In this document: positions 357 through 45,537 of the stretch, piece by piece | How the letters are laid out: each line of letters opens with the position of its first letter | How positions within the stretch are numbered: the first letter of the stretch is position 1 | From: Escherichia phage grams | Sequence record: NC_049825.1 | Reading direction: 5' to 3' (one strand) | DNA length: 49,530 nt | Notes under the pieces: model-generated | Told to the model about the DNA's origin: nothing | Databases searched by the model: none | The model's input: only the letters and a program-made list of their open reading frames with translations | Program-made: the position numbers and the translations under genes

Positions 357-402
357 ATTATGCCAGGCTTTTACACCTGGCTTTTAACAAAAAGTGCTAT
401 TT
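357..402 (-). promoter_or_regulatory. conserved 22-bp element plus -10 (CATAAT), leftward
   Basis: AAATAGCACTTTTTGTTAAAAG-N18-CATAAT on minus strand; spacer CCAGGTGTAAAAGCCTGG is a hairpin-forming dyad; stop codon of methyltransferase gene lies inside element. Confidence 0.55.
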
Positions 403-1107
403 TGCGTTAGATTCAAAGACTGCGCGAGCAAAACCGCGCGGGGTGAGGGAGCGGATCATCTTTGTGCGCGATGATTTTCCGCCAGTTTTGGCCCAGCCTG
501 GATTATCTTTGTCGTCCTCTTTCGGCAGTATTAAAGCGCGCGGAGGAATAACAAAGCCGTTGCCAGTCCAAAGACATGTTTTCTTAAAGTAGCGATCCCG
601 CGCCGGAATGATATCAGGGAAGTCGGGATGTTTATCATCTTCCGGTAAATATCCGGCGTAATCGCACGGATGGAACGTGTAATCAGGCTTACGCCATAAC
701 GTTGACAGCTTGCCTACAGGATTCTCTATCATGTAAGGAACACCGAAATAATCAGCGATATGCGCGGCTATTTTGCAAGTGTCGGCGGCCTCATTTTGGA
801 AGTTAGGATTTTCCATGCGCTTTTTAGCCCAATGGCGAGATCCGCTGTTTGCTAATTGTGTGCAAGGTGGGAAGGCCATAATGAAATCAGGTTTACCCCA
901 ATTTTCAAGTTTTGCGTTATATTTGAATAGATCATCAATCCACACATTAACGTAAAAAATATTATCATGGATTATGCGCACTGAGTGGTAATCTCCGTGA
1001 TCGGCATCATCGTAATTAAAGCAAATGCATTTATAACCAGCATCAGCCCAATCTTTAACAGCCTTACCAGATCCATCAAACAAAGAGAAAATTAAACCTT
1101 TATACAT
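397..1107 (-). CDS. DNA (cytosine-5)-methyltransferase
   Basis: 236 aa; motif I FSLFDGSGK, catalytic PC motif FPPCTQ, ENV motif MIENPVG in canonical order; RBS GAGGTGA upstream. Confidence 0.75.
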   Translation of the reverse strand: MYKGLIFSLFDGSGKAVKDWADAGYKCICFNYDDADHGDYHSVRIIHDNIFYVNVWIDDLFKYNAKLENWGKPDFIMAFPPCTQLANSGSRHWAKKRMENPNFQNEAADTCKIAAHIADYFGVPYMIENPVGKLSTLWRKPDYTFHPCDYAGYLPEDDKHPDFPDIIPARDRYFKKTCLWTGNGFVIPPRALILPKEDDKDNPGWAKTGGKSSRTKMIRSLTPRGFARAVFESNAK

Positions 1108-3134: not shown

Positions 3135-3786
3135 GCCTACTGGTCATTATTCCATCTATTCCATTAATCAGGAATAACAGGAATAACTCATTCGCGATCA
3201 CCTGGATTGTGAGACTTTGAGTTTGGTCAATTTTAATCAGTTGATTAACTTTTTGTGTGGAGGGGATAGAGAAACGCGGCCCTCTTGCGTCCTTTCCAGC
3301 AATCCTGGCGCGCGCATCTGTTATTTCTGTTCCCCGCGTTATCTCAATCAAGCCTCCGCACTTTGAGATAACGCAATCAGCGTTCATAAACAAAAAGAAC
3401 AAAATAAAATTTATATATATACACATAAAATCAATAAGTTAGTTATATATGTATTTATATTTGTTATTTACTGTTATGCTTGTTCTGTGGGTATATGGTA
3501 GTGTGGTATTGTTTTTGGTGATATGTATGTGTGGTTGTATACTTTTTAATCAATGGTAATGCGTGGTGATTTTTGTATGTATATATATGGGGTGGCGGCA
3601 ATCCTCCGTCAACCAGGTTAACAAGGTCATTTTTATCTGTTAAACCAATAACTTAACTTGTGCATTTTGTTATCTTTAAACGCGCCACACGCCAAAAGTC
3701 GTTATTAAAACACAAAATATATTGACATGTAGGAAAGGCAAGGCAATAATGCATCCAGTTTAAACGCAACAAAAGGAGTAGATGCC
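3135..3786. repeat. AT-rich non-coding region A (diverged paralogue of 32268..32692)
   Basis: No convincing ORF; shares AATCAATAAGTTAGT, GGTGATTTTT and TTTTGTTATCT blocks with region B. Confidence 0.6.
3722..3750 (+). promoter_or_regulatory. canonical sigma70 promoter (candidate early promoter)
   Basis: TTGACA-N17-AATAAT, about 36 bp upstream of ATG 3787. Confidence 0.6.
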
Positions 3787-4275
3787 ATGAGCGAAGAAAA
3801 TATTAGCACCATGTCGCGCAGTGAGTTCTGCGATATGCTTCGCACCCTGGGCGCGGCAATTGGTAGCGGTGAACGTAATAATGTATTCATGCCAGCACTT
3901 TTCTTGTGCGCTAACGTGGAGAACGGCGACGCAATTACAGCATCGTACATGCGCCAGGTTGTAAACCGCGTACCAGAAGTGAAGCAAAAAGGCGTGATCA
4001 GCATTAAGCGAAAGGTGACTGATGAGGGTGATGGCTTTGTGTTTACGCTCACAGAAGCCAAAAGCAAGCCACGCGTTCTGACTGGTGAAGAAATCGACGA
4101 GATCGCAGAAAAGCGCGCAGAGAAGGCGGTAAGCAAAATCCTTAATCACCTTGTAAGCGTAATGCCAAATATCACAGACCTGGAAGGCGATAAACTTGCT
4201 GGAGCGTGTGAGGCTATCGGGCGCTACCAGGATATGATTCGTAAACTCGCTGGAGGAAAAGAGGTAAAATTCTAA
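3787..4275 (+). CDS. hypothetical early protein (162 aa)
   Basis: ORF with RBS AAAGGAG; first gene downstream of sigma70 promoter. Confidence 0.6.
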   Translation: MSEENISTMSRSEFCDMLRTLGAAIGSGERNNVFMPALFLCANVENGDAITASYMRQVVNRVPEVKQKGVISIKRKVTDEGDGFVFTLTEAKSKPRVLTGEEIDEIAEKRAEKAVSKILNHLVSVMPNITDLEGDKLAGACEAIGRYQDMIRKLAGGKEVKF

Positions 4276-4319
4276 ATAGCACTTTTTGTCAAAAGTCAAA
4301 AACGATAACCAGGCATAAT
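4274..4319 (+). promoter_or_regulatory. conserved 22-bp element plus -10 (CATAAT)
   Basis: AAATAGCACTTTTTGTCAAAAG-N18-CATAAT; overlaps stop codon TAA of upstream gene. Confidence 0.55.
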
Positions 4320-4374
4320 AAATCACATAGGGCGGCACGGCGTCGCCCACTAAAACCAATCAGGAGAAAGCACC

Positions 4375-5265
4375 ATGTTAAAACTTACTGACATTAAATT
4401 CCCGATCACCTTCGAATCTCGCGGCGTTGGTCATTTCATGTTTACCGACGAGAAGACATGCACTAAGTTTAACGAATACGGAAGTCCAAACGCTTCAACA
4501 ATGGAGATTGAACACTTCATTGAAGCGCACAATAAACACTACAACTCACTCAGAGACTACGGCTATGCAATGCCAGGATATACCAGCTTACACTACAAGC
4601 CATATAAAGGCCAGGTGCTGCCAGTGCGCTCACCGGAACGCGCAGATATTCCGATGGTAGAAATGAAAACGTGCGACTATAAAAAATTGTGGTGCTTAAG
4701 TGTGGACAATATCAAGTATCCGATCGTATTCCGAACGACTGGTAAATCGACGATTCGCTACACATCTCGCGACAATGGCGTTTATAGCTATGGTACGAAA
4801 TCAGAGTTGAAAGTTGATTTCTTTGTCAACGGTCACAACAAATTCAATCCGCACAACGAAGAGGATAAAGTGTATTACGTGGAAGACATTACAAAACACT
4901 TGTTTGGAGAAACTCCATTCGGCGGCGGAAAGACGTCAATTCAAAAAATCATTGGCGAGGAGATCCACAAAGCGGCTGCCGAAATGAAAGCGCCTGGAGG
5001 CTGGCGTATTGACAAGAGCGCCTTTGCCTATCAAGAAATCGTAACGCAGGGCGCGATTGAAGATATGCCAGTTGCAGCCACGCTAAAAGGAGTCCAGCTT
5101 GATGACGGCACTTGGTATGAATTAACGGCCACACCAAAGACGATCGAAATTCATGATGATGTTGTTATCCTTCTGCTTCACTACGGCGGCACTAAAAACC
5201 GGACTGTTGCAGGTGAGATCAGCATCAAGCGCGGAGCGATGGTTAAGTGGAAGGTCAAAGTGTAA
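4375..5265 (+). CDS. hypothetical protein (296 aa)
   Basis: ORF with RBS CAGGAGAAAG. Confidence 0.65.
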   Translation: MLKLTDIKFPITFESRGVGHFMFTDEKTCTKFNEYGSPNASTMEIEHFIEAHNKHYNSLRDYGYAMPGYTSLHYKPYKGQVLPVRSPERADIPMVEMKTCDYKKLWCLSVDNIKYPIVFRTTGKSTIRYTSRDNGVYSYGTKSELKVDFFVNGHNKFNPHNEEDKVYYVEDITKHLFGETPFGGGKTSIQKIIGEEIHKAAAEMKAPGGWRIDKSAFAYQEIVTQGAIEDMPVAATLKGVQLDDGTWYELTATPKTIEIHDDVVILLLHYGGTKNRTVAGEISIKRGAMVKWKVKV

Positions 5266-5308
5266 ATAGCACGAATTGTTAAAACTCAAATGTGGGGCCA
5301 GGTATAAT
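5264..5308 (+). promoter_or_regulatory. conserved 22-bp element (GAATTG variant) plus -10 (TATAAT)
   Basis: AAATAGCACGAATTGTTAAAAC-N17-TATAAT; -10 flanked by near-dyad GTGGGGCC/GGCCTCAC. Confidence 0.55.
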
Positions 5309-5338
5309 GGCCTCACTTTCAACGAAGGGGATAAAACG

Positions 5339-5569
5339 ATGTACATTAACAAGAAGATGAAATGCGTTTCCGTTAACTATGGTTGTGCTGGAATGTTCAA
5401 GCCTGGCGAAATCTATATGGCGCAAAAGTTGAAATCGTCAACCGGATCTTTTTACGTCAGAAACAGCAAAGGGCATCGCATGTTCCTGAACGGTGGCGAA
5501 GGCACTAAGGTTATGGCGCACGCTATGGTGATTGCTGAATTTGAGGAGGTGAAGGATGGAGACAAATAA
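5339..5569 (+). CDS. hypothetical protein (76 aa)
   Basis: Internal ATG of track ORF chosen for RBS AAGGGGATAAAACG and position downstream of promoter. Confidence 0.5.
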   Translation: MYINKKMKCVSVNYGCAGMFKPGEIYMAQKLKSSTGSFYVRNSKGHRMFLNGGEGTKVMAHAMVIAEFEEVKDGDK

Positions 5570-5777
5570 GCGCGTTAAACACAAGTTTATTGATAATCAT
5601 GGCGATGCACTTGAGGTATATAAGTTTGGCGATCGCGTGTTTATTGATGGCACGTTTGAAGGTGGGCGCAGGCCGGATTTTAGGTCTATACTCACCATTG
5701 ACAAGGTGCGCAAGCTGGCGGATAAGTTAAATGATCTGGCAGATGAAATCGAATACAAGCAAATCCATTTTAATTGA
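5556..5777 (+). CDS. hypothetical protein (73 aa)
   Basis: ORF with RBS GAGGAGGTGAAGG. Confidence 0.5.
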   Translation: METNKRVKHKFIDNHGDALEVYKFGDRVFIDGTFEGGRRPDFRSILTIDKVRKLADKLNDLADEIEYKQIHFN

Positions 5778-5788
5778 TAGGTTTGATA

Positions 5789-6331
5789 ATGAAAAAATAC
5801 GAATTTGAACTTTGGGGAAGCAAATACCATTTTTCCACGAGCAAGCCGATTGTTATCGTTGACCTGGACGGAACGTTATCAGACGGAACGCATCGATTGC
5901 ACCTGCTTCCGACAGAAGATTTGCACCTTACAGAAAGCTGGTCTGAGTTCAATAAGGCGGCTGTTGGCGATTCGCCGATTAAGAGCACGGTTGCAGTGGT
6001 TAACGGTTTGTGGATGTCAGGATTTGCCATCGTTATCATGACCGGACGTAGCGATGAAGTGATGGAGGACACCTGCAAATGGATTAACGAAAACGGCATC
6101 AAGTACGATGCGTTAATCATGCGCCGCAGGGAAGACAACCGCAAAGACACAATCATCAAAGAAGAAGTCTTGCGCGCTATCGGCCTAGAAAACATCGTGT
6201 GCGCTTTTGATGATTCGCCGAACGTGGTTAAGCACTTCCGCAGCCTGGGAATCACAACCTATCAGGTCACGGAATACGACAAGCCACATAATCATATCCA
6301 ATCGCATGGCGTGGAGGAGTTGCGCAAATGA
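5789..6331 (+). CDS. HAD-superfamily phosphatase (polynucleotide 3'-phosphatase / nucleotidase-like)
   Basis: DxDGT motif IVIVDLDGTL, IVIMTGRSDE, KDTIIKEEVL, CAFDDSPNVV blocks recalled as resembling the phosphatase domain of T4 polynucleotide kinase; ATG at 5789 in frame with track ORF 5774. Confidence 0.55.
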   Translation: MKKYEFELWGSKYHFSTSKPIVIVDLDGTLSDGTHRLHLLPTEDLHLTESWSEFNKAAVGDSPIKSTVAVVNGLWMSGFAIVIMTGRSDEVMEDTCKWINENGIKYDALIMRRREDNRKDTIIKEEVLRAIGLENIVCAFDDSPNVVKHFRSLGITTYQVTEYDKPHNHIQSHGVEELRK

Positions 6332-6543
6332 TTGTGACGCACGATGTAGAGCCAGGCGCGAGCACTGCGCAGGACATGGTTTCCGGAATGACGCCAAAAT
6401 CGCACAGAATGGTACGCGTGCGCGGTTATAGCTTCAATGTCTCCCAAACACTCAAGGAGATCTTGGCCTTGCCAGAAGTAGATACAGCTCTTGTGGGTGT
6501 GCATACAAACGAATATGTTTCTTTCCACATTGTGACGAAATAG
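6328..6543 (+). CDS. hypothetical protein (71 aa)
   Basis: ORF; ATGA overlap with upstream gene. Confidence 0.5.
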   Translation: MIVTHDVEPGASTAQDMVSGMTPKSHRMVRVRGYSFNVSQTLKEILALPEVDTALVGVHTNEYVSFHIVTK

Positions 6544-6583
6544 CACTTTTTGTTAAAATAGCTTAACGGGCTTGCTGTATAGT
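6538..6583 (+). promoter_or_regulatory. conserved 22-bp element plus -10 (TATAGT)
   Basis: AAATAGCACTTTTTGTTAAAAT-N18-TATAGT; stop TAG of upstream gene inside element. Confidence 0.55.
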
Positions 6584-6614
6584 AAGCCCATCTACAACAA
6601 ACGAGGATTAAATC

Positions 6615-6878
6615 ATGGCTAATAAAGTTGAGTTTTTCAAAGCGGTGGACGTTATTGATGGTGCGCCTAGCTTCTTTGCTATCCATTCTATTGACGGCGA
6701 GGATATTGGGTACAATGTTATCCGTCGAGATGGAATCTCAAAACTTAGCGATCTTGTGAGTGTTATTGTGGCAAACGGAAAATGTGTGTTGCAAGATTCG
6801 CCACGAGAGCCGCGCCGCCGCGACATGGTAGAGCCTGTTCTGCTTTACACTCTGGTAATTGAAGGAGTAAACAAATGA
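6615..6878 (+). CDS. hypothetical protein (87 aa)
   Basis: ORF with RBS GAGGA. Confidence 0.5.
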   Translation: MANKVEFFKAVDVIDGAPSFFAIHSIDGEDIGYNVIRRDGISKLSDLVSVIVANGKCVLQDSPREPRRRDMVEPVLLYTLVIEGVNK

Positions 6879-7060
6879 TTTGGTTACTTGTATTTTTAGT
6901 GGTTTTCTTTTATATTTCAGGCTTATTCATCTTTCGCGCGCTGGTGAAAACATGCGATTGCACGGATAAAGATCAGCCTCTTGTTCTGATGTTCTGGTTT
7001 GTGTGGTTTTGGGTGGCGCTTTACCAGATTGTACGGGATGAAAACGGCTTTAAGTGGTGA
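6875..7060 (+). CDS. small membrane protein (61 aa)
   Basis: Hydrophobic N-terminal and C-terminal segments (IWLLVFLVVFFYISGLFIF, LVLMFWFVWFWVAL); ATGA overlap. Confidence 0.5.
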   Translation: MIWLLVFLVVFFYISGLFIFRALVKTCDCTDKDQPLVLMFWFVWFWVALYQIVRDENGFKW

Positions 7061-7115
7061 TTCTTGCTATAGCGCATTCATGCAGTGCGCTATGTTGAGA
7101 TAACAACAGGAGATC

Positions 7116-7244
7116 ATGAAGATGCGAAACTTCGAAAAAATCGTAACCAAGAAGAAGCGCTACAGCTATGATGAGCACCGCGAGATGAATCAACGCTATC
7201 GCAAGAAGCTACAGCGCCCAGGTAAACATTCAAGCCGATATTGA
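7116..7244 (+). CDS. small basic protein (42 aa)
   Basis: MKMRNFEKIVTKKKRYSYDEHREMNQRYRKKLQRPGKHSSRY; RBS AGGAG; below ORF-track cut-off. Confidence 0.35.
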   Translation: MKMRNFEKIVTKKKRYSYDEHREMNQRYRKKLQRPGKHSSRY

Positions 7245-7254
7245 GACAACTAAT

Positions 7255-7845
7255 ATGAAACGCGACATTATCATCCTTAACGGACCGCCAGGAGTTGGCA
7301 AGGATACGCTTGCGGCATACTTAACGGGCCATCGTTACGCAGCCGTTAAAGCGTCGTTTAAACAGCCTATGTTTGATATTGCGTTTTCCATGCTTGGCGT
7401 TTACCGATATGACGAGTTCATTGATCTGTATAACGACCGCGAGCAGAAAGAAAAGCCTCAAGCAATCTTGCAAGGCAAGTCGCCTCGCCAGTTCATGATC
7501 TGGATTAGCGAAGAAGTTATGAAGCCAGCTTTTGGTGAGCAATATTTCGGAAATCGCATGGTTGAGCAAGTACACGAGATGTACAGAGATTTAGCTGTTG
7601 TAATTAGTGATGGCGGATTCCCTGAAGAAATCAAGTCGCTAGTTAAGGCAGGCCATGAAGTGCATATTTGCCGACTGCATCGCGAAGGCTTCACGTTTGA
7701 TGGCGATTCACGAAACTATATTGACCTGAGCGGATACCATCACCGAGTAAAACATTACGACTTCACGATGATTGATGGCGATCCAGAAAAGACTGTTGAC
7801 GAGATCATCAAAACTGTCCAGTGGCAACACATCAAGATCAAATAG
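7255..7845 (+). CDS. deoxynucleoside monophosphate kinase-like P-loop kinase
   Basis: Walker A LNGPPGVGKDT; blocks YAAVKASFKQPMFDIAFSMLGV and VISDGGFPEEIKSLVKAGHEVHICRL recalled as similar to T4 gp1 dNMP kinase. Confidence 0.55.
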   Translation: MKRDIIILNGPPGVGKDTLAAYLTGHRYAAVKASFKQPMFDIAFSMLGVYRYDEFIDLYNDREQKEKPQAILQGKSPRQFMIWISEEVMKPAFGEQYFGNRMVEQVHEMYRDLAVVISDGGFPEEIKSLVKAGHEVHICRLHREGFTFDGDSRNYIDLSGYHHRVKHYDFTMIDGDPEKTVDEIIKTVQWQHIKIK

Positions 7846-7885
7846 CACGAATTGCTAAAAGCGGGGCGCAATGCCTCGCTATAAT
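7840..7885 (+). promoter_or_regulatory. conserved 22-bp element (GAATTG variant) plus -10 (TATAAT)
   Basis: AAATAGCACGAATTGCTAAAAG-N18-TATAAT; stop TAG inside element. Confidence 0.55.
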
Positions 7886-7915
7886 GCAAACACCAATCAA
7901 CGAGAGGAAATCATC

Positions 7916-8317
7916 ATGGTAGAGTTAAACGACATTCGCGTTGGAACAAAATTTCGCGTAACCTGGGCAGATAAATATTGCGGAGTTAGCAAGGGCCAGG
8001 TTGTTACTGTGGATAGTATTTATCGCGGATGCAGCAAAGACTTTCGCCGACCACGCATCAAGAATGGCTATATCATTACTCGACAACTTGGCTTTGATCA
8101 TTATTGCGTAGTGGCAACTCAAGGCGTTTTGATTGAGCTTAAGCGAATCAGCGATCATCGCGGCTGCCATGTTAAGACAATGAAAATTCCATTTCTGCGA
8201 GCGCGATACGATGCGCGACGTATGCGCCGACTTGCTCGCAATGCGATCAAGTTCAAAAAGCCTGATAATGTTCTTTACGGCATGTACAAGGGGATTGCGC
8301 GAAATGCTGGGAAATAA
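7916..8317 (+). CDS. hypothetical protein (133 aa), basic C-terminus
   Basis: Internal ATG of track ORF with RBS GAGAGGAAA. Confidence 0.5.
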   Translation: MVELNDIRVGTKFRVTWADKYCGVSKGQVVTVDSIYRGCSKDFRRPRIKNGYIITRQLGFDHYCVVATQGVLIELKRISDHRGCHVKTMKIPFLRARYDARRMRRLARNAIKFKKPDNVLYGMYKGIARNAGK

Positions 8318-8435
8318 CAACAACGCAACCAATCCTAAGCCACCGTTTGATTTTCATGAAATCATGATTGTGTTATTCTTGATTCTCTTAGTTATTTATT
8401 CAGTGAGGGCCGCACTATGGTTTTTAACGCACTAA
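8304..8435 (+). CDS. small membrane protein (43 aa)
   Basis: MLGNNNNATNPKPPFDFHEIMIVLFLILLVIYSVRAALWFLTH; weak RBS; overlaps end of upstream gene. Confidence 0.3.
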   Translation: MLGNNNNATNPKPPFDFHEIMIVLFLILLVIYSVRAALWFLTH

Positions 8436-8680
8436 AACGAATCTTTAAACCTGAATACCGGATCGTTGCTTGCACAGAATGCAAGATTTATTACCTGCAA
8501 CGCCGCCGCGTTATTAGTGGCGATTGGGAATATCTGACGGATGATGCTTTCGGCTTTTGGGCTATGGAGTTCAATAGCTACAGTGAAGCGCGTGAGTACG
8601 CTAAAAAGTTGCACAAGTTCCGACCTTACAAACTGCGTTTGCTGGTTGTCAAAAAGTGCGACGTATGGGATCACGAATGA
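8417..8680 (+). CDS. hypothetical protein (87 aa)
   Basis: ORF with RBS GAGGG. Confidence 0.5.
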   Translation: MVFNALKRIFKPEYRIVACTECKIYYLQRRRVISGDWEYLTDDAFGFWAMEFNSYSEAREYAKKLHKFRPYKLRLLVVKKCDVWDHE

Positions 8681-8856
8681 AAAGAGTAATTATCATTTTT
8701 ATTGCCGTTATCGCTGGTTGTTACCTGGCTTATAATTATAGCGGCATTGTTGAGTCAATCGGCGGGTTGATTATCTTCATGGCTGGCGGGTATGCTGGCT
8801 ATTGTGATGGATTCGAAAACGGAAAGCGATACATGCTGACCGAAAAAAAGAAGTAA
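8677..8856 (+). CDS. small membrane protein (59 aa)
   Basis: MKRVIIIFIAVIAGCYLAYNYSGIVESIGGLIIFMAGGYAG...; ATGA overlap with upstream stop. Confidence 0.45.
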   Translation: MKRVIIIFIAVIAGCYLAYNYSGIVESIGGLIIFMAGGYAGYCDGFENGKRYMLTEKKK

Positions 8857-8899
8857 TGTTAACCGCGCCGCTTCGGTGGCGCTAAAAGGAGGAAACAAA

Positions 8900-9208
8900 A
8901 TGGCTAAAAGCAATCGTAAAATGTTGATTAACGCATTCGAAAAGGCAGCACTTGAGCGTGGTTGGAATGACTCATTTCACACAGCAAACTGTATCCGCCG
9001 TTACGGATTCAAGAATTGCCGCTCATGGGCGCGTGAAATGGCTTCATGGTATGATTTTGATGCTCATTATCTTGATATGGATTGCGCCATGGTTGAAATG
9101 GATTGCGCCATGGTTGAAATGATTGAGCAGGCCGCACTAGAGGATCGACCATTAACGCAATCTGATTTTGACGATTTTGTGCGCGATGAAATCTATTACA
9201 TGAGCTAA
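8900..9208 (+). CDS. hypothetical protein (102 aa) containing an in-frame 21-bp tandem duplication
   Basis: ATG at 8900 with RBS AAAGGAGGAAACAAA; duplicated peptide MDCAMVE. Confidence 0.5.
   Translation: MAKSNRKMLINAFEKAALERGWNDSFHTANCIRRYGFKNCRSWAREMASWYDFDAHYLDMDCAMVEMDCAMVEMIEQAALEDRPLTQSDFDDFVRDEIYYMS
9079..9120 (+). repeat. perfect 2 x 21-bp tandem direct repeat inside CDS
   Basis: GGATTGCGCCATGGTTGAAAT repeated twice. Confidence 0.9.
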
Positions 9209-9251
9209 TAGCACTTTTTGTTAAAACTTCCGCGAGGGCATTTGTTAAAGT
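9206..9251 (+). promoter_or_regulatory. conserved 22-bp element plus -10-like TAAAGT
   Basis: TAATAGCACTTTTTGTTAAAAC-N18-TAAAGT (preceded by TG); stop TAA inside element. Confidence 0.5.
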
Positions 9252-9283
9252 GTCCTCATTGAAGCGAAACAGAGGAAATCAAA

Positions 9284-9496
9284 ATGAAAATTCGAATCAC
9301 CAGGGTTGACATTGACCGTAACGACGGAAGCATTACCCTTGAGCAATGCGGATTCAAAGTTGGTGACATTGTAGAGGTTGACGGATTCTTTCGCGATGGT
9401 TCTTACTGCGTGTTAGCAATCCGCAACACGGAAGAAATTCGAATCGGTGATAACATCGGCGTAAACCATGACGAATGCGAGGTAGTAGAAGAATGA
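9284..9496 (+). CDS. hypothetical protein (70 aa)
   Basis: ORF with RBS AGAGGAAA. Confidence 0.5.
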   Translation: MKIRITRVDIDRNDGSITLEQCGFKVGDIVEVDGFFRDGSYCVLAIRNTEEIRIGDNIGVNHDECEVVEE

Positions 9497-9726
9497 TCAC
9501 GATTAACCTTTCAGAGAAGCAAGCATATCAAGTGATGCGCTACATTTCTGGCTTTGGTATGGAAGGCGCTATGGGTGAGGTTGCGGATCAGATTTGCCGT
9601 CAACTTACACCAGCACCAACGCGAGCGGCAGAAACTGCAGCATGGCGCAACGAGGCTGGATACATCCAGAAAGCTATTGAAGACTGGAAGCGCAAAAACG
9701 AGACTGCGGAGGATGCAGGATTATGA
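9493..9726 (+). CDS. hypothetical protein (77 aa)
   Basis: ATG overlapping upstream stop (ATGA). Confidence 0.5.
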   Translation: MITINLSEKQAYQVMRYISGFGMEGAMGEVADQICRQLTPAPTRAAETAAWRNEAGYIQKAIEDWKRKNETAEDAGL

Positions 9727-10037
9727 TTTACATTCACTACTACCAGATCGGGACAAACGAAAACAAGCAGGAGCGCAGAGCAATTTGTGACACGCTCGAC
9801 GATGCGAAAGCACAGCAACGCGTTTTGGGTGGCGTAATTCAGGCTTTTGAGTCAGTGGAAGACATAGAGCGCCGAGAGCATTTGAAAGAGATTGTTGTTG
9901 ATGAAATTTCATCACTAATCGACGACATGACAAATCACGGGCCTGGTTCTCCGTGGGAAGAAGCCGGATCGACGGAGTGGGATTGCGCTAAAGTTGCAAC
10001 GCTTAACAACTTTCGTGAGTTGCTAGACGATTTTTAA
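9723..10037 (+). CDS. hypothetical acidic protein (104 aa)
   Basis: ATG overlapping upstream stop. Confidence 0.5.
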   Translation: MIYIHYYQIGTNENKQERRAICDTLDDAKAQQRVLGGVIQAFESVEDIERREHLKEIVVDEISSLIDDMTNHGPGSPWEEAGSTEWDCAKVATLNNFRELLDDF

Positions 10038-10107
10038 TTAAAATTGAATGCCTCATACAGCGAACAGGACGCATTTTGACGAGGTATTTTTTATGTAAGG
10101 TGATTCA

Positions 10108-10236
10108 ATGGGTAGCTATATAAAACCGTCGCAATGGTGCTCACAGAAGCAAGAGGAAGCATTGGAGCGCGACGATACTGAAACAGCAATGCACTATTTC
10201 GAAATGTACAACTTGTGGAAGGGTAGAGGTCTGTAA
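10108..10236 (+). CDS. small protein (42 aa)
   Basis: RBS AAGGTGA; stop overlaps next start (TAATG); below track cut-off. Confidence 0.35.
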   Translation: MGSYIKPSQWCSQKQEEALERDDTETAMHYFEMYNLWKGRGL

Positions 10237-10466
10237 TGTTTGGAATGAACGAGGCACAATTCAACGCTGCAAAACGCCAGGCTAAGAAGTGCGGCGAGGC
10301 AATGAAGGCGGATGTTGAAAAGCGCGGGAAGTATGTTGATGAAGTCATGAAGGGCATTATTGCCGAACATTATCAGCCAGTTGCGCCAATGCTGACAATT
10401 ACACAATTCATCTGGTTGTGTGGTTATCTTCGTGGGAGATGGGGAAACGCATTTGACCGCGAATGA
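10236..10466 (+). CDS. hypothetical protein (76 aa)
   Basis: ORF in operon context. Confidence 0.5.
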   Translation: MFGMNEAQFNAAKRQAKKCGEAMKADVEKRGKYVDEVMKGIIAEHYQPVAPMLTITQFIWLCGYLRGRWGNAFDRE

Positions 10467-10495
10467 TTGACAACGATTTCCTGATTGGTTAGCAT
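10467..10495 (+). promoter_or_regulatory. canonical sigma70 promoter
   Basis: TTGACA-N17-TAGCAT directly after stop codon of upstream gene. Confidence 0.5.
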
Positions 10496-10555
10496 ATTCA
10501 GCGTTTACATAAGAGCGGCATTAGTGCCGAACGGGTGGCGCGGTTGCCACGCAAC

Positions 10556-10620
10556 AATGGCGATGTGCTGGAGGTTATTGCGATGCAATATAATCCGTAA
10601 GACGTATCGCCTTTTTTTTT
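10556..10620 (+). terminator. candidate intrinsic terminator with long structured loop
   Basis: GGCGAT ... ATCGCC stem closing a structured region, followed by T9. Confidence 0.4.
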
Positions 10621-10632
10621 ATAGGTGAATAT

Positions 10633-10866
10633 ATGGAAAAGTACAAATTAACTTTCATGTTTAATAGCATGGTGATGAATCCCTTAAATGGTTACGCTTG
10701 CAATAGCTTTTCTGTTACCGTTAATGAGGATGAAATTGATGATGATGGAAAATTCATTCGAATTGGTGAATACTTGTACCCAGTGCACAATATCAATTGC
10801 ATCAAACGCGAGATCGTAAAAGATGAAGTACAAGGTAAGGTTGACGATCAGGCGAATGGGGCGTAA
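10633..10866 (+). CDS. hypothetical protein (77 aa)
   Basis: ORF with RBS AGGTGA. Confidence 0.5.
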   Translation: MEKYKLTFMFNSMVMNPLNGYACNSFSVTVNEDEIDDDGKFIRIGEYLYPVHNINCIKREIVKDEVQGKVDDQANGA

Positions 10867-11008
10867 TTGCTCGTCATGTAGACAAAGTTTTGAATGTGAG
10901 GTTGAAGCGCGCGGAGAGCTTGAGGCAGCAGCAAGAGCAAAAGAGTTGTCCGGCGCTAATCAAGACACTCACCAGTTTTCAATAGATCTTGTAAGGAAAA
11001 TGTCATGA
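10823..11008 (+). CDS. hypothetical small protein; start uncertain (10823 or 10856)
   Basis: ORF overlapping end of upstream gene; weak RBS. Confidence 0.25.
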   Translation: MKYKVRLTIRRMGRNCSSCRQSFECEVEARGELEAAARAKELSGANQDTHQFSIDLVRKMS

Positions 11009-11244
11009 GTTCTGTAATTATTGGTTTGGTTGCTTTAATCATTGGTGTTCTAATCGGCTTTGTTGCTGTATCTTTCGTGGTGGCTGTTGGTGTTCGCTAT
11101 AAGTCAAAAAAAGGTGAATTTGCTTTAGCGTTTTGGGATGAAGATCAGAAAGTTTGGCAGGTTCGCGGTCACTACTTATCAATCGGTGGCAGGATTCACA
11201 GCACTATGAAGACAAATCCAGAAAAAGTAAAATACAAGTATTGA
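11005..11244 (+). CDS. membrane-anchored protein (79 aa)
   Basis: N-terminal TM helix VIIGLVALIIGVLIGFVAVSFVVAV. Confidence 0.5.
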   Translation: MSSVIIGLVALIIGVLIGFVAVSFVVAVGVRYKSKKGEFALAFWDEDQKVWQVRGHYLSIGGRIHSTMKTNPEKVKYKY

Positions 11245-11251
11245 ACAACTA

Positions 11252-11275
11252 CCCGCCAAATGGCGGGTTTTTTAT
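11252..11275 (+). terminator. intrinsic terminator
   Basis: CCCGCCAAATGGCGGG followed by T-run. Confidence 0.7.
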
Positions 11276-11324
11276 TGCCTGCAATTTGTCTATAATGATG
11301 CTTTGTTATAAAGGAGGGCGCATT

Positions 11325-44323: not shown

Positions 44324-44421
44324 GGATTATTATCATGTGGCGTTTGTTACTTTTGCCCTTACCTGTTATGATGTCGATCTCTATTGTATATGTTGTCATA
44401 ATGAGATAAGGAGAATTTTTG

Positions 44422-45537
44422 ATGAAGCAAATCAAAATCACAGATGAACAATTTATCAATGAGCGCAAGCAGGGAAAGACATATAAGCAGATCGCTAATG
44501 AGTATGGCATGAACGTTCGCAGCATTGAGCGCCGCGCAGCACGACTTGCAAAGAAGGGAGAGATTGACACAAAAGGTGCGCCAGGATTTGGGATTGCTCG
44601 TGAATCTGTTTTACGACGCGCCAACGGTGAAGAAGTAATGAGATGGACAATCACCACTCGCGACAAAGAACAGTTAGAAGCATTAATGCAGGCCGCTATT
44701 GATGCATTTAGCGAAGAAGTCCCTCGACTTGATCCGCAGCAAGAATCACAAAAGGATTATAGCGAGACGTTATCACTGTATCCGATCTTTGATATGCACC
44801 TGGGCGCAATGGCGCATAAGCATGAATGCGGCGAGAATTGGGATACAGCAACAGCAGAGCGCGTAATGAATAATTTCATTGACTATTCCATCCAGTGCGC
44901 GCCGGATAGTGAAAAAGCTGTTTTGCTGATTGGTGGTGATATGCTTCACAGCGACGGACTGGAAGCGGTAACACCTGCAAGCGGTCACGTATTGGATCAA
45001 GATAGTCGATACGCAAAACTGGTTTACGTTGCCATCCGGTCAGTGCGTCGAGCAATCACAAAGCTGTTATCAAAACACAAAAACGTAGAGATTCAGATCA
45101 TTGAAGGCAACCACGACCAAAGCGGCATGATCTGGTTGCGCGCAGCAATGGCGGCAGCATATGAGAATGAGCCGCGAGTGCATGTTGATGTGTCTCCGCG
45201 AGTAGTTCATCACACACAATATGGCAAAACGTTCCTGGCATACCATCACGGGCATACTATCCGCAAACCTGAAACATTGCTCATGATGTGCGCGGCAGAC
45301 TGGCGCGAAGATTTCGGCAATTCAAAAATGATGTATGCTCACGTAGGGCACTGGCATCATCAGACAGTAACTGAAACAAGCCTTGGCATTGTTGAAGTGC
45401 ATAGCACTATGGCGGCAAAAGATGCATATGCTGCGCGCGGTGGATGGCGTTCTCGTCGCCGTGCGGCTGTTATTGTTTATGATAAAGAATACGGAGAAGT
45501 AGGGCGATTTATGCATTATCCAGAAATGGCTGGTTGA
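44422..45537 (+). CDS. metallophosphoesterase with N-terminal HTH-like domain
   Basis: Calcineurin-like motifs DMHLG, GGDMLH, GNHD, GHWHH; N-terminal YKQIANEYGMNVRSIERRAARL; RBS AAGGAG. Confidence 0.6.
   Translation: MKQIKITDEQFINERKQGKTYKQIANEYGMNVRSIERRAARLAKKGEIDTKGAPGFGIARESVLRRANGEEVMRWTITTRDKEQLEALMQAAIDAFSEEVPRLDPQQESQKDYSETLSLYPIFDMHLGAMAHKHECGENWDTATAERVMNNFIDYSIQCAPDSEKAVLLIGGDMLHSDGLEAVTPASGHVLDQDSRYAKLVYVAIRSVRRAITKLLSKHKNVEIQIIEGNHDQSGMIWLRAAMAAAYENEPRVHVDVSPRVVHHTQYGKTFLAYHHGHTIRKPETLLMMCAADWREDFGNSKMMYAHVGHWHHQTVTETSLGIVEVHSTMAAKDAYAARGGWRSRRRAAVIVYDKEYGEVGRFMHYPEMAG

What the first reader, a model, noticed from the sequence alone, without database searches (positions are those of the whole stretch)
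5789..7845. Split nucleotide-metabolism pair: T4 Pnk-phosphatase-like HAD enzyme and a dNMP-kinase-like P-loop kinase
The HAD protein (5789..6331) shows blocks I recall from the 3'-phosphatase domain of T4 polynucleotide kinase, and the kinase (7255..7845) resembles T4 gp1 dNMP kinase more than a polynucleotide 5'-kinase. They are separated by four small genes. If the phosphatase acts on nucleic-acid 3' ends it could contribute to repair of nuclease-inflicted damage, but no RNA ligase (KxDG motif) was seen, so a role in nucleotide pool conversion is equally plausible.
Basis: partly seen in the sequence, partly recalled or inferred. Interest (0 to 1): 0.35.

Follow-up and report, generated by a model that had tools for sequence, protein, structure and literature searches.

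The report
Phage phosphatase and dNMP-kinase module
A T1-like coliphage carries a T4-Pnkp-type phosphatase gene and a nucleotide (dNMP) kinase gene that form a conserved, sometimes fused, module most likely feeding DNA building blocks to the phage; the pair is already annotated, and relatives of the kinase have been tested experimentally, so it is largely ordinary.

Summary

- **Phage:** the window is a near-complete T1-like phage (Drexlerviridae, Hanrivervirus).
- **HAD, ORF 5789-6331:** it passes Pfam HAD_PNKP (80 bits). It keeps the T4 Pnkp phosphatase catalytic residues I checked. Its best structural matches are T4 Pnkp phosphatase and Pnkp1. It has no kinase domain, so the usual label "polynucleotide kinase" is a misnomer.
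- **Kinase, ORF 7255-7845:** it is a gp1-type dNMP kinase. The top fold hit is 1DEK (TM 0.70). It is 96% identical to the KarlJaspers DNK, which triggers the Kongming defence, and 46% identical to Rao1 R1DNK, which phosphorylates dAMP, dGMP, dCMP and dTMP in vitro.
- **Linkage:** in 103 of 111 distinct viral loci the HAD lies upstream of the kinase on the same strand, with a gap of -1 to 2158 nt. Three protein clusters are HAD-kinase fusions. About 50 contigs carry a tight metallophosphoesterase ("DNA repair exonuclease")-HAD-kinase operon. The window's copy of that third gene is at 44419-45537.
- **No ligase** was found.

Best reading: a nucleotide-salvage module. The HAD's substrate is untested; T5 Dmp, a 5'-dNMP phosphatase, is a remote relative. 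Novelty is low.

The parts
5789..6331 (+). Standalone T4-Pnkp-type HAD (DxDxT) phosphatase, 180 aa. It has no kinase domain. After motif I it carries a conserved ~15-residue insert (about res 37-60, LHLLPTEDLHLTESWSEFNKAA) that T4 PseT lacks.
   Evidence: Pfam HAD_PNKP 2e-22 and phrog_415 1e-65. PDB profile hits: Pnkp1 4xrp 1e-13 and T4 Pnkp. Foldseek top hits: 5uj0, 4xru and 2ia5. Catalytic residues mapped to T4 D165/D167/T169/R176/S211/R213/D254/K258/D277/D278.
6328..7244 (+). Four small intervening ORFs of unknown function: 6328-6543 (overlaps the HAD stop by 4 nt), 6615-6878, 6875-7060 (61 aa, hydrophobic) and 7116-7244. They are probably not part of the enzymatic module and occupy a variable insertion hotspot.
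   Evidence: ORF list. They hit PHROGs of unknown function. The same four CDS are annotated in KarlJaspers. The HAD-kinase gap varies from -1 to 2158 nt among relatives.
7255..7845 (+). gp1-type deoxynucleoside monophosphate kinase (DNK), 196 aa, with P-loop GPPGVGKDT (catalytic Lys16).
   Evidence: phrog_139 2.8e-50. AF2 pLDDT 90.7. Foldseek top hit 1DEK, TM 0.70. BFVD neighbours are annotated as dNMP kinases. It is 96% identical to KarlJaspers DNK QXV82329.1 and 46% identical to the biochemically characterised Rao1 R1DNK.
44419..45537 (+). Metallophosphoesterase annotated 'DNA repair exonuclease' (372 aa; N-terminal HTH plus DxH / GDxxH / GNHD / HHGH / GHWHH motifs). In many relatives it is the third gene of the module. 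Here it is displaced, about 9.8 kb upstream of the HAD if the window ends are joined.
   Evidence: phrog_704 1.5e-147. 42% identical to the gene next to the HAD-kinase fusions. 57% identical to Rao1 gp56, which directly precedes the HAD and DNK. A tight exo-HAD-kinase operon occurs in about 50 distinct contigs.

Best explanation
This is a nucleotide-salvage module of a T1-like phage, which has no DNA polymerase, ribonucleotide reductase or ligase of its own and is reported to rebuild its DNA from degraded host DNA. The kinase (7255-7845) is a broad-specificity dNMP kinase that converts 5'-dNMPs to dNDPs, which host NDK then converts to dNTPs. This step is shown for close relatives. The HAD protein (5789-6331) is a Pnkp-type aspartyl-phosphatase. 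It is inferred to remove 3'-phosphates from DNA fragments, from deoxynucleoside 3',5'-bisphosphates or from 3'-dNMPs. That would unblock exonucleolytic breakdown and deliver 5'-dNMPs, the kinase's substrate. The displaced metallophosphoesterase (44419-45537) is inferred to be the nuclease or phosphodiesterase working upstream. The strict gene order, the frequent adjacency and the natural HAD-kinase fusions are read as consecutive steps of one pathway.
For: **Kinase**
- phrog_139 scores 2.8e-50.
- The fold is closest to T4 gp1 (1DEK, TM 0.70), and viral neighbours are annotated as dNMP kinases.
- It is 96% identical to the KarlJaspers DNK that triggers Kongming, and 46% identical to R1DNK, which phosphorylates dAMP, dGMP, dCMP and dTMP in vitro. 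Deleting R1DNK lowers dATP during infection.

**HAD**
- It passes HAD_PNKP and retains the T4 catalytic residues.
- Its best PDB sequence and fold matches are Pnkp phosphatases.
- T4 Pnkp phosphatase accepts the mononucleotide 3'-dTMP as substrate (PMC3592404).

**Linkage**
- 103 of 111 distinct loci have HAD then kinase on the same strand, and 46 of them have a gap of 50 nt or less.
- There are three fusion clusters, found in four independent samples.
- The exo-HAD-kinase operon is widespread.
- The same triad follows the exonuclease and endonuclease VII genes in an Autographiviridae phage.
- In RB49-like phage kvi, a T1-type HAD overlaps the nrdB stop codon although that phage already has PseT and RnlA.

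**Context**
- T1 and TLS are reported to degrade host DNA and reuse its nucleotides, with the enzymes still unidentified (PMC11447400).
- The window contains no ligase.
Against: - No T1-type HAD has been assayed, so its substrate is inferred from homology only.
- T5 Dmp, a 5'-dNMP phosphatase, is also a remote relative and shares the motif I spacing and the insert motif. Regiospecificity is therefore uncertain.
- The common DNA nucleases I know of leave 5'-phosphate/3'-OH ends (my own knowledge), so a source of 3'-phosphorylated products is hypothetical.
- Deleting dnk in Rao1 caused no fitness cost under laboratory conditions, so salvage is not essential there.
- The metallophosphoesterase has no confident named family or solved relative, and its nuclease role rests on a PHROG label.
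- The synteny sample is biased toward Drexlerviridae-like contigs, because of pattern-based retrieval and the top-80 cap.
Confidence: 0.45

Rival explanations
1. Dmp-like pool control or anti-defence. The HAD is a 5'-(d)NMP phosphatase like T5 Dmp. It limits or shapes the dNMP pool that its partner DNK acts on, for example to blunt DNK-sensing immunity such as Kongming (the dAMP to dITP signal). That would explain why it is locked to, and sometimes fused with, the DNK gene.
For: - T5 Dmp is a HAD with the same DLDGTxxxxxHR spacing, an NxAC..D insert motif and matching TxR, KD..K and DD motifs.
- The T1-type profile detects it at 17 bits, and hhalign covers 138 columns at E 2e-4.
- Dmps are validated anti-Kongming factors and are reported to co-occur with DNKs.
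- Every HAD-anchored locus sampled also has the kinase.
Against: - Similarity to T4 Pnkp is much stronger (38 versus 17 bits; hhalign 96% versus 45% probability).
- Rao1 carries an ortholog (gp57, 58% identical) directly upstream of its DNK. Yet Rao1 is the Kongming-sensitive model phage, dAMP rises 2-3 fold on infection, and T5 Dmp supplied in trans is needed to protect it. The native HAD therefore does not deplete dAMP effectively.
- Caveat: Bas26 has a functional Dmp and is still sensitive, so sensitivity alone does not exclude this reading.
Confidence: 0.2
2. Nucleic-acid end healing. The HAD removes 3'-phosphates (or 2',3'-cyclic phosphates) from broken phage DNA or host/phage RNA, possibly after trimming by the metallophosphoesterase, and a host ligase seals the break. 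The kinase would supply the 5'-phosphorylation, or be only loosely related.
For: - The closest characterised relatives of the HAD are repair enzymes: T4 Pnkp and the Pnkp1/Rnl/Hen1 complex.
- The phosphatase-N / kinase-C order of the fusions mirrors mammalian PNKP (my own knowledge).
- The associated gene is labelled 'DNA repair exonuclease'.
- T1-like phages are noted for environmental stability (PMC13164509 abstract).
Against: - The kinase lacks the T4 Pnk acceptor-site residues. Only the P-loop aligns, and the fold search does not return Pnk.
- Its relatives are demonstrated dNMP kinases.
- There is no phage ligase.
- Removing a 3'-phosphate would work against the host ligase RtcB, which needs 3'-P or 2',3'>P ends (my own knowledge).
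- Phage kvi keeps a T1-type HAD in addition to a complete PseT and RnlA, which suggests a non-redundant role.
Confidence: 0.2
3. The two enzymes have unrelated functions, and the shared neighbourhood is only inherited gene order in one phage lineage.
For: - The kinase occurs alone in many phage families and in 7-8 of the sampled loci.
- The HAD occurs away from a T1-type kinase in kvi.
- The sampled loci are mostly related Drexlerviridae.
Against: - Three diverged fusion clusters share a homologous linker.
- The order and strand are invariant although small genes are repeatedly inserted between the two genes.
- The triad recurs in an Autographiviridae phage with a metallophosphoesterase showing no BLAST-level similarity to the window's.
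Confidence: 0.1

Closest known systems
T4 polynucleotide kinase-phosphatase (PseT), C-terminal 3'-phosphatase domain (PDB 5UJ0, 1LTQ); Pfam PF25109 HAD_PNKP
   Same: It has the DxDxT acylphosphatase fold. The nucleophile and acid pair, R176, the motif II Ser/Thr plus Arg, D254/K258 and the DD pair all have equivalents (D25/D27/T29, R36, T85/R87, D120/K124, D141/D142). It is the best PDB sequence and fold match.
   Different: There is no fused 5'-kinase domain. About 15 extra, highly conserved residues follow R36, and an N-terminal beta-hairpin is present. No RNA ligase partner exists. The gene is linked to a dNMP kinase instead of a polynucleotide kinase. Overall identity is about 24-29%.
Rao1 R1DNK and KarlJaspers DNK (Kongming-triggering phage dNMP kinases; bioRxiv 10.1101/2024.12.20.629578)
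   Same: They belong to the same subfamily (46% and 96% identity) with the same motifs: LNGPPGxGKDT, SFKxPMF, RQFMIWISE, DGGF and GDSRxY. Rao1 also has the exo-HAD-DNK gene order.
   Different: In the window the kinase is separated from the HAD by four small genes and from the exo gene by about 9.8 kb. The window protein itself has not been tested.
T4 gp1 dNMP kinase (PDB 1DEK/1DEL) and T5 Dnk
   Same: The fold matches (TM 0.70) and the GKDT P-loop is shared. Equivalents exist for R68, R132, M135, W152, D175, E181 and R197.
   Different: It lacks gp1's roughly 40-residue insertion. K37, R177 and R11 are not conserved (F40, G121, G13). Sequence similarity is detectable only by profile methods over residues 3-77.
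T5 Dmp deoxynucleoside-5'-monophosphatase (anti-Kongming factor)
   Same: It is a HAD with identical motif I to Arg spacing (DLDGTxxxxxHR), a similar insert motif (NxAC..D) and TxR, KD..K and DD motifs. It also co-occurs with a phage DNK.
   Different: The similarity is weak (17 bits; hhalign probability 45%). Dmp has a roughly 65-residue C-terminal extension and no Pfam match. Rao1, which carries a T1-type HAD, does not show Dmp-like dAMP depletion or Kongming resistance.
Mammalian PNKP and yeast Tpp1 (from my own knowledge, not tested here)
   Same: PNKP has the phosphatase-then-kinase order seen in the fusions. Tpp1 is a standalone DNA 3'-phosphatase without a kinase domain.
   Different: They belong to a different HAD subfamily (PNK3P) and PNKP has a Pnk-type kinase. 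They are eukaryotic DNA-repair proteins.

Membership tests
HAD_PNKP (T4 Pnkp-type 3'-phosphatase, Pfam PF25109) | Score above the Pfam gathering threshold | tested here: met
   80.3 bits against a cut-off of 27.6, E 2e-22, covering profile positions 3-140 of 143.
HAD_PNKP (T4 Pnkp-type 3'-phosphatase, Pfam PF25109) | DxDxT motif: Asp nucleophile and Asp general acid (T4 D165, D167, T169) | tested here: met
   D25, D27 and T29 are invariant in 20 family members and in the wider T1-type set. Their roles are taken from PMC3592404.
HAD_PNKP (T4 Pnkp-type 3'-phosphatase, Pfam PF25109) | Phosphate and Mg contacts: S211, K258, D277/D278 | tested here: met
   The equivalents are T85, K124 and D141/D142. 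Their roles are taken from PMC3592404.
HAD_PNKP (T4 Pnkp-type 3'-phosphatase, Pfam PF25109) | Other residues recalled as essential in T4 (R176, R213, D254; from my memory of the alanine scans) | tested here: met
   R36 sits at the same +11 spacing from the nucleophile, and R87 and D120 are present in the window. R87 and D120 are not universal in more distant T1-type HADs.
HAD_PNKP (T4 Pnkp-type 3'-phosphatase, Pfam PF25109) | Fold closest to solved Pnkp phosphatase domains | tested here: met
   Foldseek ranks 1-18 are 5uj0, 4xru, 2ia5, 1rpz and 1ltq (E 2e-7 to 2e-5, TMq about 0.55). The model has pLDDT 75 and residues 29-59 are unmodelled.
Bifunctional Pnkp (5'-kinase plus 3'-phosphatase in one chain) | Fused Pnk-type P-loop 5'-kinase domain | tested here: not met
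   The protein is 180 aa with no P-loop and only the HAD domain. The common label 'polynucleotide kinase' is therefore inaccurate.
HAD_PNKP (T4 Pnkp-type 3'-phosphatase, Pfam PF25109) | 3'-phosphatase activity on polynucleotides or 3'-dNMP | not testable with these tools
   This needs an enzyme assay. My literature searches turned up no assay of a T1-type HAD.
T5 Dmp-type 5'-dNMP phosphatase | Significant sequence or profile similarity to validated Dmps (T5, Bas26, VPG01) | tested here: inconclusive
   HMM score of 17.0 bits over Dmp residues 15-64. hhalign gives probability 44.7%, E 2.3e-4, 138 columns. The motifs are shared but the relationship is much weaker than to T4 PseT.
T5 Dmp-type 5'-dNMP phosphatase | dAMP depletion and anti-Kongming activity in vivo | not testable with these tools
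   There is indirect literature evidence against it. Rao1 carries an ortholog (58% identical) yet is Kongming-sensitive, shows rising dAMP and is rescued by T5 Dmp in trans.
Phage dNMP kinase (DNK; T4 gp1 / R1DNK type, phrog_139) | Family profile match and gp1-like fold | tested here: met
   phrog_139 at 2.8e-50. 1DEK is the top fold hit at TM 0.70, while adenylate kinases score below 0.5. BFVD neighbours are annotated as dNMP kinases. No Pfam or NCBIfam model reaches its threshold.
Phage dNMP kinase (DNK; T4 gp1 / R1DNK type, phrog_139) | P-loop with catalytic Lys followed by Asp-Thr (GKDT) | tested here: met
   G15, K16, D17 and T18 are invariant. The K15A change in R1DNK abolishes function.
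Phage dNMP kinase (DNK; T4 gp1 / R1DNK type, phrog_139) | Close similarity to an experimentally characterised member | tested here: met
   46% identity over 190 aa to R1DNK (E 1e-57) and 96% identity to KarlJaspers DNK QXV82329.1. The activities are reported.
Phage dNMP kinase (DNK; T4 gp1 / R1DNK type, phrog_139) | gp1 dNMP-binding residues (K37, R68, R132, R177, M135, D175, E181; list from PMC10653934) | tested here: inconclusive
   R62, R78, M81, D119 and E125 are conserved and invariant. K37 maps to F40 and R177 to G121, so they are not conserved. The alignment of the C-terminal half rests on MAFFT only.
T4 Pnk-type polynucleotide 5'-kinase | Acceptor-site residues D35, R38, D85 and R126 with a GxxGxGKS P-loop (PMC2831316) | tested here: not met
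   hhalign aligns only 25 P-loop residues. Ser16 is replaced by Asp, and there is no conserved Asp general base after strand 2.
T4 Pnk-type polynucleotide 5'-kinase | Pnk kinase fold as the nearest structure | tested here: not met
   No Pnk chain appears among the top 50 PDB fold hits.

The most novel reading that the evidence does not exclude
The T1-type HAD is a so-far unrecognised branch linking Pnkp 3'-phosphatases and T5 Dmp 5'-nucleotidases. Its real job is to work on the DNK's substrates or products. For example, it could trim dAMP, dIMP or dNDP pools, or convert pdNp to pdN, so that the phage gains dNTP supply while limiting DNK-dependent immune signalling such as Kongming. That would explain the strict HAD-then-DNK order and the natural HAD-DNK fusions, which would then be bifunctional 'trigger plus modulator' enzymes.
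Probability: 0.15. Interest if true: 0.6.

Novelty: already known. Interest (0 to 1): 0.3.

Why it matters
The finding itself adds little. Both genes are annotated in scores of Drexlerviridae genomes and discussed in genome papers, and the kinase subfamily has been characterised as the trigger of the Kongming defence.

The follow-up value is modest but concrete:
1. The widespread label 'polynucleotide kinase' for the HAD is wrong, because the protein is phosphatase-only.
2. The fusions and the strict synteny tie this uncharacterised phosphatase to the DNK and to a metallophosphoesterase. That gives three candidate enzymes for the long-unassigned host-DNA recycling activity of T1-like phages.
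3. The remote link to T5 Dmp makes it worth testing whether the HAD modulates DNK-dependent immunity.

Tried and rejected
- Sequence searches of the kinase against the PDB, as single sequence and as profile, gave only P-loop noise and did not find 1DEK. Only the fold search did.
- Pfam and NCBIfam have no model that reaches threshold for the kinase.
- PADLOC gave nothing meaningful for the HAD, kinase or exo.
- The promoter and terminator scan of 3400-11300 found no more sites than shuffles, so co-transcription of the pair cannot be argued from it. The only strong site is a sigma-70-like match at 3722-3750.
- The exo protein has no PDB sequence relative and only a sub-threshold PdeM-like hit around its GNHD motif.
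- The Aeromonas phage metallophosphoesterase next to its HAD-kinase pair shows no BLAST-level similarity to the window exo, so the 'triad' may involve non-orthologous phosphoesterases.
- Other long kinase-family members (P0264, P0274, P0288 and others) carry tails with no Pfam match rather than informative domains.
- The retron Eco2 paper mentions PNK only as a reagent.
- I considered the kinase as a diverged polynucleotide 5'-kinase, making the pair a 'split Pnkp'. I rejected this on the fold, residue and literature evidence.
- Whether the Kongming authors counted T1-type HADs among their 'Dmp homologues', and how sensitive Bas03-13 are, could not be determined because those data are in figures only.
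Full report
**Observation**

The window is a near-complete genome of a T1-like siphovirus (Drexlerviridae, Tempevirinae, Hanrivervirus). Region 5000-9000 is about 93-95% identical to phages vojen, JLBYU09, pSf-1 and KarlJaspers.

Both ORFs exist as described: 5789-6331 (+, 180 aa) and 7255-7845 (+, 196 aa). Four small ORFs lie between them. KarlJaspers has the same six genes annotated, as bas06_0071-0076.

The relatives' annotation shows no DNA polymerase, nucleotide reductase or ligase. Pfam found no ligase domain in the large unassigned ORFs. A KxDG scan found the motif only in structural or replication proteins and in short ORFs.

**The HAD protein**

It passes Pfam PF25109 'Polynucleotide kinase PNKP phosphatase domain' (80.3 bits, cut-off 27.6) and phrog_415 (1e-65). 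Sugar-phosphatase-type models score only marginally.

Against the PDB, the best sequence matches are Pnkp1 of the Pnkp1/Rnl/Hen1 RNA-repair complex (profile E 1e-13) and the T4 Pnkp phosphatase domain. An AlphaFold model has pLDDT 75, with residues 29-59 unmodelled. Its top 18 Foldseek hits are T4 Pnkp or Pnkp1 chains.

The residue mapping onto T4 PseT is as follows:

| T4 PseT | Window HAD |
|---|---|
| D165 / D167 / T169 | D25 / D27 / T29 |
| R176 | R36 (same +11 spacing) |
| S211 / R213 | T85 / R87 |
| D254 / K258 | D120 / K124 |
| D277 / D278 | D141 / D142 |

These positions are invariant or nearly so in the family. The mechanistic roles of D165, D167, S211, K258 and D278 are taken from PMC3592404.

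The protein has no P-loop domain. The frequent GenBank product name 'polynucleotide kinase', and the statement in the TLS genome paper that this gene product phosphorylates oligonucleotide termini (PMC11447400), are therefore not supported by the sequence. It is phosphatase-only.

A family-specific, almost invariant insert follows R36 (LHLLPTEDLHLTESWSEFNKAA). T4 PseT lacks it and AlphaFold could not model it.

**The kinase**

No Pfam or NCBIfam model reaches threshold, and PDB sequence searches see only the P-loop. However:
- phrog_139 'deoxynucleoside monophosphate kinase' matches at 2.8e-50.
- A confident model (pLDDT 90.7) has T4 gp1 (1DEK) as its top fold hit at TM 0.70. Adenylate kinases come next at TM below 0.5, and no polynucleotide kinase is in the top 50.
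- Neighbours among predicted viral structures are overwhelmingly annotated as dNMP kinases. One is fused to a nucleoside 2-deoxyribosyltransferase-like domain.
- hhalign aligns 74 columns with gp1 but only the 25-residue P-loop with T4 Pnk.

Using the 1DEK residue list in PMC10653934, the GKDT P-loop and the equivalents of R68, R132, M135, W152, D175, E181 and R197 are invariant in the family. K37, R177 and R11 are not conserved. The T4 Pnk acceptor-site residues (PMC2831316) have no counterparts.

**Experimental anchor for the kinase**

The Kongming study (bioRxiv 10.1101/2024.12.20.629578) reports the following:
- Phage dNMP kinases (DNKs) trigger a dITP-based defence.
- The DNK of phage KarlJaspers (QXV82329.1 = bas06_0076) triggers toxicity. 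It is 96% identical to the window kinase.
- The model trigger, Rao1 R1DNK, is 46% identical over 190 residues and has the same motifs.
- R1DNK efficiently phosphorylates dAMP, dGMP and dCMP, also phosphorylates dTMP, and acts weakly on dIMP. It is inactivated by K15A, and it contributes to dATP levels during infection.

The kinase's function is therefore known, by close homology to tested enzymes.

**Linkage of the two genes**

A profile search of 1.84 billion representative proteins found 2,949 clusters at E 1e-10 or better. Two of the long hits carry an N-terminal HAD_PNKP domain. A further search gave three fusion clusters:
- P0256 (403 aa)
- P0386 (413 aa, 74% identical to P0256)
- P0262 (461 aa, 37% identical to P0256)

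All three have the T1-type HAD insert, and P0256 and P0262 (whose sequences I read) share a linker motif. They occur in four independent samples on phage contigs of up to 61 kb.

Among IMG/VR loci retrieved with either protein, there were 111 distinct kinase loci. Of these, 103 had the HAD within 10 kb, always on the same strand and always upstream. The gaps were distributed as follows:

| Gap, HAD end to kinase start | Loci |
|---|---|
| 50 nt or less | 46 |
| 50-300 nt | 18 |
| 300-1000 nt | 23 |
| More than 1000 nt (max 2158) | 16 |

The window's gap is 923 nt. Its 'split' is therefore one state of an insertion hotspot inside a conserved module.

Every HAD-anchored locus had the kinase. Seven or eight kinase loci lacked the HAD. 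The kinase also occurs in 1,460 phage records from many families, so the HAD looks like an accessory to the kinase.

The sample is biased toward Drexlerviridae-like contigs because of how loci are retrieved.

**A third partner**

The fusion genes are followed directly by a 386-aa phrog_704 'DNA repair exonuclease'. The window encodes an ortholog at 44419-45537 (42% identity; phrog_704 1.5e-147). By eye it has classical metallophosphoesterase motifs plus an N-terminal HTH, but it has no confident Pfam, NCBIfam or PDB relative.

About 50 distinct contigs have a tight exo-HAD-kinase operon. Rao1 has it too: gp56-gp57-gp58, with 57%, 58% and 46% identity to the window proteins. This agrees with the KanT1 paper's remark that PNK and dNMP kinase often follow the repair exonuclease (PMC13164509).

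In the window's lineage the exo gene sits before the lysis cassette, about 9.8 kb upstream of the HAD across the window junction.

An Autographiviridae phage has exonuclease, endonuclease VII, metallophosphoesterase, HAD and kinase genes in a row. Its phosphoesterase shows no BLAST-level similarity to the window's.

RB49-like phage kvi has a standalone T1-type HAD overlapping the nrdB stop codon, in addition to a full PseT and RnlA.

**What the HAD does**

Homology favours a Pnkp-type 3'-phosphatase. T4 Pnkp phosphatase also accepts the mononucleotide 3'-dTMP.

T5 Dmp, the deoxynucleoside-5'-monophosphatase that protects T5 from Kongming, also turns out to be a HAD with the same DLDGTxxxxxHR spacing, a similar insert motif and matching downstream motifs. 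It has no Pfam hit.

| Comparison with the T1-type HAD | T4 PseT | T5 Dmp |
|---|---|---|
| HMM score with the T1-type profile | 38.2 bits | 17.0 bits |
| hhalign probability | 96% | 45% |

The T1-type HAD is thus closer to Pnkp. The clade contains both regiospecificities, so the substrate cannot be settled by sequence.

Indirect evidence argues against a Dmp-like role. Rao1 carries the HAD directly upstream of its DNK, yet it is the Kongming-sensitive model phage. dAMP rises 2-3 fold during its infection, and T5 Dmp supplied in trans protects it. Bas26 shows that a functional Dmp does not guarantee resistance, so this is not decisive.

**Conclusion**

The best-supported reading (about 0.45) is a salvage module:
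- a phosphoesterase or nuclease, and a 3'-phosphatase, process host-DNA breakdown products;
- the DNK converts the resulting 5'-dNMPs to dNDPs.

This fits T1 and TLS biology, where host DNA is reused and the responsible enzymes are unassigned.

The rivals are:
- a Dmp-like pool-control or anti-defence role for the HAD (0.2);
- nucleic-acid end healing with a host ligase (0.2);
- mere inherited synteny (0.1).

The pair is already annotated and the kinase subfamily has been characterised experimentally, so novelty is low. The residual interest lies in the uncharacterised HAD, its fusions with the DNK, and its position between Pnkp and Dmp.

Noticed in passing
window 44419-45537 (+); also L162:10482-11642, L164:11357-12517, L169:36693-37826: A 372-aa 'DNA repair exonuclease' (phrog_704) with an N-terminal HTH and, by eye, metallophosphoesterase motifs. 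It has no Pfam, NCBIfam or PDB relative. In many relatives it forms an operon with the HAD and kinase, and it follows the HAD-kinase fusions. Its biochemical function appears untested.
   Followed up: partly
window 5897-5968 (HAD residues about 37-60): This is the most conserved stretch of the HAD family (LHLLPTEDLHLTESWSEFNKAA, nearly invariant). It is absent from T4 PseT and is predicted with pLDDT below 50. A related motif (NxAC..D) occurs in T5 Dmp. It may be a substrate-specificity cap.
   Followed up: partly
window 6332-7254 (between the HAD and the kinase): The HAD-kinase intergenic space is an insertion hotspot. Among relatives it ranges from overlapping genes to 2158 nt filled with small ORFs. 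Here it holds four small genes of unknown function, one of them a 61-aa hydrophobic protein (6875-7060).
   Followed up: partly
L166:3998-4474 (Escherichia phage kvi, MN850615): This RB49-like T4-type phage carries a standalone T1-type HAD (158 aa, 43% identical by tblastn) overlapping the nrdB stop codon. It also has a full-length PseT and RnlA a few kb away.
   Followed up: partly
phage database hits to window 5000-9000 and 7255-7845: Between 20 and 39 GenBank records named 'Campylobacter phage' (for example A131, MG065665, 92.9% protein identity to the kinase) match this coliphage at high identity. The host labels look doubtful and may reflect contaminating T1-like coliphages.
   Followed up: no
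BFVD hits to the kinase model: A0A7S6HV70 (518 aa, Escherichia phage JEP1, 'DOD-type homing endonuclease domain-containing') matches the kinase fold at TM 0.72, which suggests a kinase gene interrupted by or fused to a homing-endonuclease or intein-like element. A0A6J5RPH7 is a kinase fused to a nucleoside 2-deoxyribosyltransferase-like domain.
   Followed up: no
window 397-1107 (-): This 236-aa ORF has no Pfam hit at E<0.01 but a strong phrog_757 'DNA methyltransferase' match (1.4e-85). The KarlJaspers gene of the same length in the same relative position (by gene order; not aligned) is annotated as a Dcm-like C5 methyltransferase. It is a methyltransferase lineage that Pfam does not capture.
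   Followed up: yes
window 3722-3750 (+): A near-consensus sigma-70-like promoter match (TTGACA, 17-nt spacer, AATAAT; 11 of 12) lies just upstream of the rightward block of small genes that contains the HAD and the kinase. The overall site count in the region is not above shuffles.
   Followed up: no
L162 and L163 (contigs with fusion P0256): The fusion-bearing phages have a different genome organisation (Prim-Pol, RdgC, a PAPS-reductase-like gene, a Dam-like methyltransferase). The HAD-kinase-exo association therefore extends beyond classical T1-like genomes.
   Followed up: no
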